Virus record (IMG/VR): IMGVR_UViG_2874933748_000006
DNA: 18,304 bases
Direction: 5' to 3' (one strand)
Origin: a virus
Lineage: Duplodnaviria; Heunggongvirae; Uroviricota; Caudoviricetes
Shown here: piece by piece, positions 6,388-7,721 of the stretch
Layout: each line of letters starts with the position of its first letter
Numbering within the stretch: position 1 is the first letter of the stretch
Translations under genes and position numbers: made by a program
Notes under the pieces: generated by a model
Told to the model about the DNA's origin: nothing
The model's database searches: none
The model's input: the letters and a program-made list of their open reading frames with translations, nothing else

Positions 6388-6555
6388 GTTCTTTTTTTGT
6401 GGTGAAAGATGAGGCAAAATTATCGCGTAACATGCTAACAATGGAGTTTGTTTTGTGATAAAGCCATTTTTAATGACGGTTGCAATATTAACCTCTTGCT
6501 GTGCTCAGGCGAAAATACTAACAAATGAGGAGATTGTTTCACGATTTATTAGTAA

Positions 6556-6564
6556 CGTTAAAAC
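6556..6564. repeat. IS1 target-site duplication, left copy (CGTTAAAAC)
   Basis: A 9-bp direct repeat identical to 7332-7340, immediately flanking the IS1 ends. Confidence 0.9.
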
Positions 6565-6619
6565 GGTGATGCTGCCAACTTACTGATTTAGTGTATGATG
6601 GTGTTTTTGAGGTGCTCCA

Positions 6620-6895
6620 GTGGCTTCTGTTTCTATCAGCTGTCCCTCCTGTTCAGCTACTGACGGGGTGGTGCGTAACGGCAAAAGCACTGCCGGACAT
6701 CAGCGCTATCTCTGCTCTCACTGCCGTAAAACATGGCAACTGCAGTTCACTTACACCGCTTCTCAACCCGGTACGCACCAGAAAATCATTGATATGGCCA
6801 TGAATGGCGTTGGATGCCGGGCAACTGCACGCATTATGGGCGTTGGCCTCAACACGATTTTACGTCACTTAAAAAACTCAGGCCGCAGTCGGTAA
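6620..6895 (+). CDS. insA: IS1 InsA
   Basis: A 91-aa ORF starting with GTG, with the zinc-finger-like CPSC...CSHC motif. It is identical in translation to the second copy. The A_AAA_AAC frameshift heptamer lies at 6871-6877. Confidence 0.95.
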
Positions 6896-7316
6896 CCTCG
6901 CGCATACAGCCGGGCAGTGACGTCATCGTCTGCGCGGAAATGGACGAACAGTGGGGCTATGTCGGGCTAAATCGCGCCAGCGCTGGCTGTTTTACGCGTA
7001 TGACAGTCTCCGGAAGACGGTTGTTGCGCACGTATTCGGTGAACGCACTATGGCGACGCTGGGGCGTCTTATGAGCCTGCTGTCACCCTTTGACGTGGTG
7101 ATATGGATGACGGATGGCTGGCCGCTGTATGAATCCCGCCTGAAGGGAAAGCTGCACGTAATCAGCAAGCGATATACGCAGCGAATTGAGCGGCATAACC
7201 TGAATCTGAGGCAGCACCTGGCACGGCTGGGACGGAAGTCGCTGTCGTTCTCAAAATCGGTGGAGCTGCATGACAAAGTCATCGGGCATTATCTGAACAT
7301 AAAACACTATCAATAA
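6871..7316 (+). pseudogene. insB: IS1 insB' region (InsAB' transposase C-terminal part), frameshifted
   Basis: The A6C heptamer at 6871-6877 is the known IS1 -1 frameshift site. Downstream, the InsB frame is broken at GGG 6964-6966 (GGGG in copy 2), which splits the ORF into 6814-7074 and 6951-7316. Confidence 0.8.
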
Positions 7317-7331
7317 GTTGGAGTCATTACC

Positions 7332-7340
7332 CGTTAAAAC
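7332..7340. repeat. IS1 target-site duplication, right copy (CGTTAAAAC)
   Basis: Identical to 6556-6564. Confidence 0.9.
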
Positions 7341-7721
7341 ATCTGCAGATAATGACGTTGACTTGGATACAGATGGATTCAGACAACTGAGGATATCGTG
7401 CCCATCCCCTTCTGCCAGCGGTGCGATTATATTGAGAAAAGCTTCTTATGAATTCGGCAAAAGTATAGGTGTATTTGATTTTGCAAACAATGCATCACCA
7501 GCGACGATGACATTTTTGATCCCAATATATAAAGATGATGATTTTGATTCAGATACTGTTGGTTTTACATTTGCGTTCAAGATGCCAAGAGGCCAGTTTT
7601 TTGTAGATGTAAAAGAAAACGGGAATATCAGAGCTGGAGTTAATGTTAATGGCGAGTCGGGAGTGACCTACGAAAATTGCAAATTGAATATGAAAGATAT
7701 TAATGATGATTAATATATAAG

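What the first reader, a model, noticed from the sequence alone, without database searches (positions are those of the whole stretch)
6455..7713. AT-rich lipoprotein moron inside the tail operon, with its own terminator, inactivated by IS1
Between the tape-measure and DNA-circulation genes, where Mu-like tail modules normally have no gene, there is a roughly 160-codon ORF whose product starts with a lipoprotein signal peptide (MIKPFLMTVAILTSCCAQA; lipobox LTSC, Cys at +2 rather than Asp, which suggests outer-membrane sorting). It ends in an acidic Asp-rich domain I cannot place in any family. By inspection it is clearly more AT-rich than the flanking tail genes (not computed), and it is followed by an intrinsic terminator at 7722-7745. 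This is the classic architecture of a horizontally acquired moron. Small prophage-encoded outer-membrane lipoproteins in tail regions (Cor of phi80/N15, Llp of T5) mediate receptor masking or superinfection exclusion, so this is a candidate for an undescribed exclusion or host-interaction function. Function is entirely hypothetical. In this copy the gene is split by IS1 with a clean 9-bp duplication, so it is not expressed intact here.
Basis: partly seen in the sequence, partly recalled or inferred. Interest (0 to 1): 0.7.

Follow-up and report, generated by a model that had tools for sequence, protein, structure and literature searches.

The report
IS1-split prophage moron, exported β-barrel
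A small AT-rich add-on gene sits between two tail genes of a decaying Shigella-type prophage and has been broken by a jumping gene; it encodes a protein of unknown function that is exported to the cell envelope, and the case is a clean but fairly ordinary example of phage cargo.

Summary
IS1 (6565-7331, 9-bp duplication CGTTAAAAC) splits an ORF. Once IS1 and one duplicate are removed, the ORF reads through as 160 codons at 36.9% GC, against about 52% for the flanks, and a hairpin plus T-run follows it. "Moron" is well supported. Closely related E. coli prophages have only 15 bp between the tape-measure stop and the hub-gene start. Intact copies that are 100% identical exist, and dN/dS is about 0.1-0.2.

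Distant homologs are cargo in phage-plasmid-like elements. Function remains inferred; my best guess is an envelope-resident binder or inhibitor that protects the lysogen. It is a new member of a known kind, of moderate interest.

The parts
4438..6387 (+). Tail tape-measure gene, the upstream flank of the cassette
   Evidence: Pfam PhageMin_Tail E = 1.4e-44 and phrog_28. Homology to empty-site prophages ends about 9 nt before its stop codon.
6388..6454 (+). Cassette leader, 34% GC, with Shine-Dalgarno GGAG at 6443-6446. No convincing sigma-70 promoter.
   Evidence: Composition. Absent from the empty sites. Strict and relaxed promoter scans were negative.
6455..6564 (+). 5' part of the moron ORF: GTG start, codons 1-36 plus 2 nt. 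The signal peptide is encoded by 6455-6511 and the lipobox L-T-S-C by 6488-6499. The first copy of the target duplication is at 6556-6564.
   Evidence: RefSeq annotates the same GTG start in the intact copy, WP_000594909.1.
6565..7331 (+). IS1 insertion, 767 bp. It lacks one G of the GGGG run (window 6964-6966), so insB is frameshifted.
   Evidence: Terminal repeats and length. It is 99.87% identical to the second IS1 copy, with a single 1-nt indel located. The same insertion, with an intact 768-bp IS1, is present in L018.
7332..7340 (+). Second copy of the 9-bp target-site duplication, CGTTAAAAC
7341..7713 (+). 3' part of the moron ORF (through the stop codon). It encodes the end of the N-terminal helix, the eight-stranded β-barrel, and the invariant Cys57 and Cys150.
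   Evidence: Together with 6455-6564 it is 100% identical at the nucleotide level to intact copies L008 and L013.
7719..7748 (+). Intrinsic terminator of the cassette: a 9-10 bp GC-rich stem, a short loop, then a run of T. The hub gene's ribosome-binding site follows directly.
   Evidence: The 720R4 and Yersinia alleles each carry a hairpin plus T-run at the same place with different stem sequences. Absent from the empty sites.
7760..9151 (+). Baseplate hub / 'DNA circularization' gene (like Mu gp43/N), the downstream flank
   Evidence: Pfam DNA_circ_N E = 3e-36 and phrog_184. Its first ~60 nt differ from the empty-site versions, and the sequences are nearly identical after that.

Best explanation
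SHOWN: A cassette of about 590 bp (leader, 483-nt ORF, intrinsic terminator) lies exactly between the tape-measure stop codon and the ribosome-binding site of the hub gene. The host element is a lambdoid myovirus prophage with an HK97-like head and a Mu-like tail, of the vB_EcoM-720R4 type, and it sits at ssrA. The cassette is optional: close relatives lack it. It is AT-rich and under purifying selection. In this genome it was recently knocked out by IS1; the split allele looks typical of Shigella sonnei. The prophage is defective in other ways too.

PREDICTED WITH GOOD SUPPORT: The product is exported by the Sec pathway. The mature protein is about 15 kDa and acidic (pI 4.6). It consists of one N-terminal helix and an eight-stranded up-and-down β-barrel, probably clamped by a Cys57-Cys150 disulfide between β1 and β8. 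It belongs to a small orphan family, phrog_5586. Most members are soluble periplasmic proteins. The Shigella/Yersinia branch has gained a lipobox (L[T/I]SC; Cys at +2, no Asp) and is probably tethered to the outer membrane.

INFERRED (about 35% likely): In a lysogen the protein acts in the periplasm as a stoichiometric binder or inhibitor. Its target would be an enzyme or penetration device that works on the envelope, such as a peptidoglycan hydrolase or the tail tip of a superinfecting phage, or host lysozyme. This is how the architecturally similar MliC/PliC/ACP inhibitors work, and how the tail-operon moron HK97 gp15 serves its host. The terminator would confine prophage-state transcription to the cassette, and Q-antiterminated late transcription would read through it to reach the hub and baseplate genes.
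For: Cassette and empty sites:
-. Of the 24 genomes that share most of this tape-measure 3' end, 11 match through to the ORF and 13 stop matching just before the tape-measure stop codon. All nine relatives I inspected have only 15 bp between the two genes.

Intact copies and prevalence:
- This allele is in 11 of 5426 complete E. coli genomes.
- The 50%-identical allele is in 101 of 5426 and in phage 720R4 in the same slot.
- A 39%-identical homolog occupies the same slot in L040, and so does the Yersinia homolog.

Selection: dN/dS is 0.09-0.22.

Export:
- Every full-length member has an N-terminal signal peptide.
- Cys57 is nearly invariant (at least 90%) and Cys150 is invariant.

Fold:
- AlphaFold2 gives pLDDT 85.8 and pTM 0.79, with a helix at 24-41 and 8 strands.
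- BFVD hits include a 'putative lysozyme inhibitor' at probability 0.97.

Architecture of the comparators:
- The β1-β8 disulfide, and the existence of both periplasmic and lipoprotein variants, match the published MliC/PliC/ACP description (PMC5507604 and PMC2267010).
- Here Cys57 follows β1 directly and Cys150 lies in β8.

Independent cargo: homologs at about 25% identity sit next to toxin-antitoxin and partition genes in elements of about 39 kb that have RepA, ParA and a cI-like repressor.

Read-through logic: 720R4 encodes a Q antiterminator upstream of a single late operon.

Precedent: HK97 gp15 is a tail-operon moron next to the tape-measure gene and acts in superinfection exclusion (PMC3594210).
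Against: - No experiment or expression data exist for any member of the family.
- No sigma-70 promoter was found upstream in any allele, so expression from the repressed prophage is unproven.
- The MliC/PliC motifs are absent, and no Pfam, NCBIfam or PADLOC model matches.
- I did not check the disulfide geometry on the model coordinates.
- Lipidation versus signal peptidase I cleavage of this allele cannot be decided in silico here. The lipobox Cys is at position 15, the minimum the PROSITE-like rule allows, and a perfect AQA|K site follows it.
Confidence: 0.5

Rival explanations
1. The protein is an outer-membrane lipoprotein that masks a phage receptor from the periplasmic side, as Cor (phi80/N15) and Llp (T5) do with FhuA. 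It would give superinfection exclusion at the adsorption or triggering step.
For: This allele passes a lipobox rule (FLMTVAILTSC, Cys15, K in the n-region). The lipobox is kept in all close alleles. Residue +2 is Cys rather than Asp, which by the established +2 rule means Lol-dependent sorting to the outer membrane. The gene is prophage-borne and lies in the tail region.
Against: The lipobox is absent from the 50%, about 39% and about 25% identical branches, which have Cys-free signal peptidase I signals, so the family's function cannot depend on lipid anchoring. PHROGs gave no match to any annotated exclusion family. The mature protein is about 141 aa and forms an eight-stranded barrel, whereas Llp and Cor are much smaller (my own knowledge). 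The Llp papers (PMC9586334 and a 2026 bioRxiv preprint) were listed but not read in detail.
Confidence: 0.15
2. The protein is a calycin-like, ligand-binding periplasmic protein of the lipocalin, avidin or hemophilin type. It would bind a small molecule (lipid, cofactor, haem, siderophore) and give the lysogen a nutritional or stress benefit, not phage defence.
Against: All of these matches have 10% identity or less and share only a very common topology. No ligand-binding motif is known for the family. Prophage and phage-plasmid cargo placed next to immunity and toxin-antitoxin genes is more typical of conflict functions, although that is an argument from context only.
Confidence: 0.15
3. The gene is expressed late and serves the phage, not the lysogen. 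It would be transcribed only as part of the Q-dependent late operon and exported late in infection. It might then tune lysis or stop progeny from being wasted on debris or already-infected cells.
For: No promoter of its own was detected in any allele. The gene lies in the same orientation inside the late operon. Its divergence tracks that of the neighbouring tail genes (50% against 53% for the hub protein in 720R4; 74% against 67% in Yersinia), which suggests long co-residence.
Against: A terminator is conserved right after the ORF in three alleles with different stem sequences. That is hard to explain if only late read-through transcription matters. Distant homologs are not in late operons at all; they sit beside toxin-antitoxin, partition and repressor genes. 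Many close relatives do without the gene.
Confidence: 0.12
4. It is a structural or assembly component of the tail, or a chance ORF in AT-rich DNA.
For: Its position among the tail genes.
Against: It has a Sec signal peptide, and prophages with otherwise 94-98% identical tail modules lack it. It matches no tail family. dN/dS of about 0.1-0.2 and a 19-hit family found by the exhaustive search rule out a chance ORF.
Confidence: 0.03

Closest known systems
HK97 gp15 moron (Cumby et al. 2012, as reviewed in PMC3594210)
   Same: Both are small optional genes inserted in the tail operon of a lambdoid temperate phage, right beside the tape-measure gene. Related phages lack them. The GC content differs from the neighbours, and the product goes to the cell envelope. 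gp15 is expressed from the prophage and blocks DNA entry of superinfecting phages.
   Different: gp15 is a single-pass inner-membrane protein related to YebO, and it lies upstream of the tape-measure gene. The protein here is a cleaved-signal, periplasmic or lipid-anchored β-barrel located downstream of the tape-measure gene, with no sequence relationship to gp15. No exclusion phenotype has been shown for it.
MliC / PliC / Neisseria ACP lysozyme inhibitors (PF09864 / COG3895 and ACP)
Cor (phi80/N15/HK022) and Llp (T5) receptor-blocking lipoproteins
   Same: All are phage-encoded envelope proteins with a lipobox (in this allele only). All have been proposed or shown to protect the cell against superinfection.
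   Different: No sequence or fold similarity was detected. This protein is much larger. Most members of its family are not lipoproteins.
Lambda-type morons in general (Juhala et al. 2000 definition, quoted in PMC3594210)
   Same: It is extra DNA between genes that are adjacent in relatives. Its base composition is deviant and it has its own terminator.
   Different: The defining promoter of its own was not found. Unlike a freshly acquired moron, it has co-diverged with the tail module down to 40% identity while staying at 34-38% GC.

Membership tests
Phage moron (Hendrix/Juhala definition) | Present between two genes that are adjacent in related phages | tested here: met
   The slot is empty (15 bp) in 9 related E. 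coli prophages I inspected. Of the 24 genomes sharing most of this tape-measure 3' end, 13 lose homology just before the tape-measure stop codon.
Phage moron (Hendrix/Juhala definition) | Base composition differs from the surrounding genes | tested here: met
   GC is 36.9% (GC3 31%) against 52-55% for the flanks. The 720R4, L040 and Yersinia alleles show the same contrast.
Phage moron (Hendrix/Juhala definition) | Own factor-independent terminator | tested here: met
   Hairpin at 7719-7741 plus a T-run, -14.1 kcal/mol, z = -2.65. Analogous hairpins with different sequences occur in two other alleles.
Phage moron (Hendrix/Juhala definition) | Own promoter, expression from the repressed prophage | tested here: inconclusive
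   No sigma-70 consensus match in the leader, by strict or relaxed scan, in four alleles. Weak or atypical promoters cannot be excluded, and no transcript data are available.
Bacterial lipoprotein (Lgt/LspA substrate) | Lipobox [LVI][ASTVI][GAS]C after a positively charged n-region and a hydrophobic h-region | tested here: met
   MIK-PFLMTVAI-LTSC with Cys15 passes a PROSITE-PS51257-like rule, at the minimum allowed Cys position. It is conserved in the close alleles.
Bacterial lipoprotein (Lgt/LspA substrate) | The lipobox is a conserved feature of the protein family | tested here: not met
   Of 13 members tested, only this allele passes. The others have Cys-free signals ending in AxA|K. The same AxA|K site (AQA|K) follows the lipobox in this protein.
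Bacterial lipoprotein (Lgt/LspA substrate) | Actual lipidation and signal peptidase II cleavage | not testable with these tools
   This needs globomycin sensitivity, palmitate labelling or mass spectrometry.
MliC/PliC lysozyme inhibitors (PF09864, COG3895) | Sequence match to the family model | tested here: not met
   No Pfam hit for any of 15 members, even at E <= 10. No PDB sequence hit to MliC or PliC.
MliC/PliC lysozyme inhibitors (PF09864, COG3895) | SxSGAxY motif on loop 4 and YxxxTKG on β6 (PMC5507604) | tested here: not met
   Neither motif is present. An SxSG occurs, but on loop 1 and only in the closer members.
MliC/PliC lysozyme inhibitors (PF09864, COG3895) | Exported eight-stranded antiparallel β-barrel with a β1-β8 disulfide | tested here: met
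MliC/PliC lysozyme inhibitors (PF09864, COG3895) | Inhibition of c-type lysozyme | not testable with these tools
   This needs a HEWL or human lysozyme inhibition assay with purified protein.
Cor / Llp superinfection-exclusion lipoproteins | Sequence or fold similarity to Cor or Llp | tested here: not met
   The only PHROG match is the unannotated phrog_5586. Neither protein appears among the PDB or BFVD fold matches.
Cor / Llp superinfection-exclusion lipoproteins | Binding to an outer-membrane receptor and blocking of infection | not testable with these tools
   This needs plating and adsorption assays.
phrog_5586 (unknown function) | Full-length profile match | tested here: met
   E = 9.7e-89 over residues 1-160 of a 161-position profile. 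All 15 aligned family members match it.

The most novel reading that the evidence does not exclude
phrog_5586 proteins could be a previously unrecognised, phage- and phage-plasmid-borne class of periplasmic β-barrel inhibitors. They would be built like MliC/PliC/ACP but use different contact loops. Their role would be to neutralise a peptidoglycan-degrading or membrane-penetrating component, such as the tail-tip machinery of superinfecting myoviruses, host lysozyme, or T6SS muramidases. Some branches would have converted to outer-membrane-tethered lipoproteins. The persistent 34-38% GC across alleles as different as 40% identity would then reflect selected H-NS-type regulation, not recent acquisition.
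Probability: 0.25. Interest if true: 0.6.

Novelty: new member of a known kind. Interest (0 to 1): 0.4.

Why it matters
Morons are where temperate phages keep genes that change their host, such as exclusion, serum-resistance and virulence functions, and most remain uncharacterised. This one now has precise boundaries, natural empty-site controls, intact and knocked-out natural alleles, a confident fold prediction, and a concrete, cheap test set: phage plating, lysozyme tolerance and fractionation. It is present in about 2% of complete E. coli genomes and in many Shigella genomes. If the inhibitor or exclusion idea holds, it would add a periplasmic β-barrel class to the known prophage defences. 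It would also show one family switching between soluble and lipid-anchored forms. If the idea fails, this remains a tidy example of cargo decay by IS1 in Shigella prophages.

Tried and rejected
1. The first AlphaFold run, with 8 close sequences, gave pLDDT 41 and was unusable. It was replaced by a 15-sequence run.
2. The exhaustive profile search hit three giant repeat proteins (Cadherin_4/Big_9, a T9SS protein and another). I rejected these because the matches turn negative with the broader family profile.
3. A Calx-β hit in the PDB sequence search had E = 0.21 and is not significant.
4. The apparent DxDxDG calcium-binding motif (DLDTDG) is not conserved in other members.
5. Pfam, NCBIfam and PADLOC gave nothing, even at permissive thresholds.
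6. The afdb50 fold library was unavailable.
7. The search for related loci failed with the widest alignment because it had no conserved block. I reran it with a narrower alignment. The three Firmicutes loci from the genome scan (L010-L012) cover only about 40 residues at E = 1e-4 to 1e-5 relative to the candidates, and I did not pursue them.
8. Literature searches for WP_000594909 and phrog_5586 found nothing.
9. The promoter search was negative in four alleles.
10. The plasmid and phage collections contain no record of the phage-plasmid-type homologs.
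Full report
OBSERVATION. IS1 occupies 6565-7331 (767 bp) and is bracketed by a perfect 9-bp duplication, CGTTAAAAC, at 6556-6564 and 7332-7340. 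Removing 6565-7340 joins 6455-6564 to 7341-7713 into an in-frame 483-nt ORF of 160 aa. It starts with GTG, and GGAG lies 8 nt upstream. The ORF has 36.9% GC (GC3 31%), against 52.1% and 54.6% (GC3 about 55%) for the genes on either side. A hairpin at 7719-7741 followed by a run of T folds at -14.1 kcal/mol, z = -2.65. The flanking genes are a tape-measure gene (4438-6387; PhageMin_Tail, phrog_28) and a DNA_circ_N / baseplate-hub gene (7760-9151).

IT IS A REAL GENE AND A REAL MORON. The restored ORF matches phrog_5586 (unknown function) end to end, E = 1e-88. It is intact in 11 of 5426 complete E. coli genomes and is annotated there as a hypothetical protein, WP_000594909. It is also 100% identical at the nucleotide level to intact copies in Shigella flexneri SFBU1023 and in an IMG/VR contig.

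A 50%-identical allele occupies the same slot in the complete phage vB_EcoM-720R4 and in 101 of 5426 E. coli genomes. A 39% homolog (L040) and a 74% Yersinia enterocolitica homolog sit there as well. dN/dS against the diverged alleles is 0.09-0.22, although dS is near saturation.

The decisive evidence comes from prophages whose tape-measure 3' end is 88-98% identical to this one. All nine that I inspected have the tape-measure stop codon, then 15 bp, then the hub-gene ATG. They carry no ORF and no hairpin. The alignment places the cassette boundaries at the tape-measure stop codon and about 14 nt before the hub ATG. The last five tape-measure codons and the first ~60 nt of the hub gene co-vary with presence of the cassette. 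That pattern suggests exchange by homologous recombination in the flanks, not site-specific insertion. In my sample the slot is either empty or holds a member of this one family.

The hairpin plus T-run recurs in the 720R4 and Yersinia alleles with different stem sequences, so it is a selected part of the cassette. 720R4 is lambdoid: cI, O, a Q antiterminator, and then lysis, head and tail genes in one late operon. Late transcription can therefore read through the hairpin to reach the essential hub gene. This is the classic moron logic described for HK97 and lambda (PMC3594210). The one definitional element I could not find is a promoter: strict and relaxed sigma-70 scans of four alleles were negative.

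THE PROTEIN. The family is small. The word-indexed search found 9 clusters and the exhaustive HMM search of 1.84 billion representatives found 19 hits. A profile search added only a few more. There is no Pfam, NCBIfam or PADLOC match for any member, even at permissive thresholds.

All full-length members begin with a signal peptide. Apart from the Shigella and Yersinia alleles, these are Cys-free Sec signals ending in AxA|K, for example LPLNSFA|KP, PQLALA|KD and APALA|KAP. The window allele has L-T-S-C15, which passes a PROSITE-like lipobox rule at the minimum allowed Cys position. A perfect AQA|K site follows it and aligns with the cleavage site of the other members. The lipobox is conserved in all close alleles and in the Yersinia allele, whose signal peptide appears frameshifted. 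So the family is ancestrally soluble and periplasmic. One branch has probably become a lipoprotein, and with Cys rather than Asp at +2 it would be sorted to the outer membrane by the established Lol +2 rule.

There is no separate 'acidic domain'. With a 15-sequence alignment AlphaFold2 gives pLDDT 85.8 and pTM 0.79. The model has a helix at 24-41 followed by eight β-strands. An earlier run with 8 sequences failed at pLDDT 41. The acidic residues lie in loops, notably the DDF(D/T)S loop between β4 and β5, and in the C-terminal tail. The mature protein is about 15.5 kDa with pI 4.6. Cys57 follows β1 directly and Cys150 lies in β8. Cys150 is invariant and Cys57 nearly so.

All have 10% identity or less. 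Foldseek against the PDB and BFVD found nothing at E < 1e-3. A 'putative lysozyme inhibitor' from Serratia phage Moabite appears at probability 0.97. The fold class is secure, but the specific family is not.

The architecture matches what is published for the MliC/PliC/ACP lysozyme inhibitors in four respects: the proteins are exported, they form an eight-stranded barrel, they have a β1-β8 disulfide, and both soluble and lipobox variants exist (PMC5507604 and PMC2267010). The SxSGAxY (loop 4) and YxxxTKG (β6) motifs of that family are absent here, and an SxSG sits on loop 1 instead. I therefore do not file the protein as a member. ACP shows that this scaffold can inhibit lysozyme without those motifs. 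By the alternation of loops in an up-and-down barrel, the three best-conserved loops (CPxxSASG, PRGQ and NGESG; loops 1, 5 and 7) should lie at the same end. That would be a candidate functional face, but it is an inference from topology and was not measured.

CONTEXT ELSEWHERE. The roughly 25%-identical members (P0020, P0023, P0028) are not in tail modules. They lie in contigs of 20-39 kb that have IncFII RepA, ParA, a cI-like S24 repressor, a RecA-dependent nuclease and other phage early genes. The gene sits directly beside ParC-like genes and toxin-antitoxin genes (PemK/MazE or Gp49/HTH), and its GC content equals that of the host element. The gene therefore moves as independent cargo among temperate elements, which argues against a role tied to one tail type.

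Within the tail-slot lineage, its divergence tracks that of its neighbours:
- 720R4: ORF 50%, hub protein 53%, tape measure 71%
- L040: ORF 40%, hub protein 52%, tape measure 53%
- Yersinia: ORF 74%, hub protein 67%

All these alleles stay at 34-38% GC. So the association with the slot is old, and the AT-richness is maintained and is not a sign of recent arrival.

THIS COPY. The IS1 insertion, at the same site and with the same duplication, is also present in an IMG/VR contig (L018). The 43-aa truncated N-terminal ORF (6455-6586) exists as a named Shigella sonnei protein. Many S. sonnei draft contigs of about 4.2-4.4 kb match the interval between the window's two IS1 copies. The split allele therefore looks characteristic of S. 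sonnei, and the window is probably from that species. I infer the insertion is recent because the two halves are still 100% identical to intact copies.

The prophage is defective anyway. An IS3-family element replaces the head genes, a second IS1 splits baseplate J, and an IS4-family transposase end lies at the left edge.

MECHANISM AND RIVALS. Three things are shown: the cassette is optional, the ORF is under selection, and this copy is inactivated by IS1. Three more are predicted with good support: Sec export, the β-barrel fold and the disulfide. Function is inferred only.

I put about 35% on an envelope-resident binder or inhibitor that protects the lysogen, whether against the tail tip or muralytic activity of superinfecting phages or against lysozyme-type enzymes. 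The grounds are the MliC/PliC/ACP-like architecture, the conflict-type neighbourhoods, and the HK97 gp15 precedent.

I put the rivals at:
- about 15% for Cor/Llp-style receptor masking, which is weakened because most members are not lipoproteins and no similarity exists
- about 15% for a ligand-binding calycin, since the top fold hits are of that type
- about 12% for a late-expressed phage function, because no promoter was found, although the conserved terminator and the phage-plasmid contexts argue against it
- about 3% for a structural part or a chance ORF, which I reject

NOVELTY AND SCORE. As a sequence the gene is catalogued (phrog_5586, 'hypothetical protein') and no literature mentions it. 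As a kind of thing it is a textbook moron, inactivated by a textbook IS1 hit, in a decaying Shigella prophage. My analysis adds the empty-site proof, the correction of the lipoprotein and acidic-domain reading, a confident fold, the inhibitor-like architecture, and the phage-plasmid relatives. It is a new member of a known kind, interest 0.4.

Noticed in passing
window 11750-12517 (- strand): A second IS1 copy (768 bp, intact 167-aa insB) with the 9-bp duplication GGGGGCGCA splits the baseplate J gene. Removing it restores a 360-aa ORF (11156-11749 plus 12527-13015).
   Followed up: yes
window 6964-6966: The IS1 copy inside the moron lacks one G of a GGGG run, compared with the second copy in the window and with the same insertion in L018. 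insB is therefore frameshifted and this copy cannot make its own transposase.
   Followed up: yes
window 1-2103: The left end holds the C-terminus of an IS4-family transposase (1-423), a truncated prohead protease (491-889) and an IS3-family orfA/orfB pair (951-2103). These run straight into the tail sheath gene at 2166. The capsid and connector genes seen in relatives are missing, so the prophage cannot make heads.
   Followed up: partly
window 17245-18304 (- strand): A tmRNA gene (17245-17607, tag ANDENYALAA) and smpB (17822-18304) lie immediately after the tail-fibre end of the prophage. The element therefore sits at the ssrA attachment site. The att repeats were not mapped.
   Followed up: partly
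L006 5976-6003 (Yersinia enterocolitica): In the 74%-identical Yersinia allele, an upstream ATG-AAA-AAA-CCT... reading frame that would supply a normal signal-peptide n-region is out of frame with the annotated start. This is either a frameshift or a sequencing error. About 1.5 kb upstream, where the tape-measure gene should be, has no called gene.
   Followed up: no
L041-L045 (Logan contigs SRR7990612_547, SRR13837185_96646, SRR16287790_7094): Elements of about 20-39 kb combine IncFII RepA and ParA with a cI-like S24 repressor, a RecA-dependent nuclease, DUF1064 and a Mu gp6-like gene. They look like phage-plasmids. They carry the distant homolog next to PemK/MazE or Gp49/HTH toxin-antitoxin pairs. 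No counterpart exists in the curated phage or plasmid collections.
   Followed up: partly
Tail-slot alleles: window 6455-7713, L002 8001-8489, L040 4983-5444, L006 6001-6459: All alleles keep 34-38% GC, although they have diverged to 40-74% protein identity inside modules of 47-55% GC. The AT-richness has not ameliorated. That suggests it is maintained, perhaps for H-NS-type silencing or regulation, and does not mark recent transfer.
   Followed up: no
L001 (NZ_CP065613.1, 'E. coli' FDAARGOS_944): The genome with the 100%-identical intact copy has a frameshifted ipaHe effector gene right after the prophage and an ISEc60 insertion in the tail sheath gene. The strain looks like a Shigella or EIEC lineage filed under E. 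coli.
   Followed up: no
window 13580-17046: There are two consecutive tail-fibre sets. The first is a 350-aa fibre with weak gp37-trimer similarity plus a Caudo_TAP chaperone (14785-15180). The second is a phage_tail_N fibre (15204-16472) plus a DUF4376 protein (16423-17046). This may be a host-range cassette duplication or mosaic.
   Followed up: no
H78, NZ_CP126947.1 186147-186533: A 205-kb conjugative E. coli plasmid carries a homolog of the family that matches at the same level as the 720R4 allele. This suggests a prophage of this type is integrated in a plasmid.
   Followed up: no
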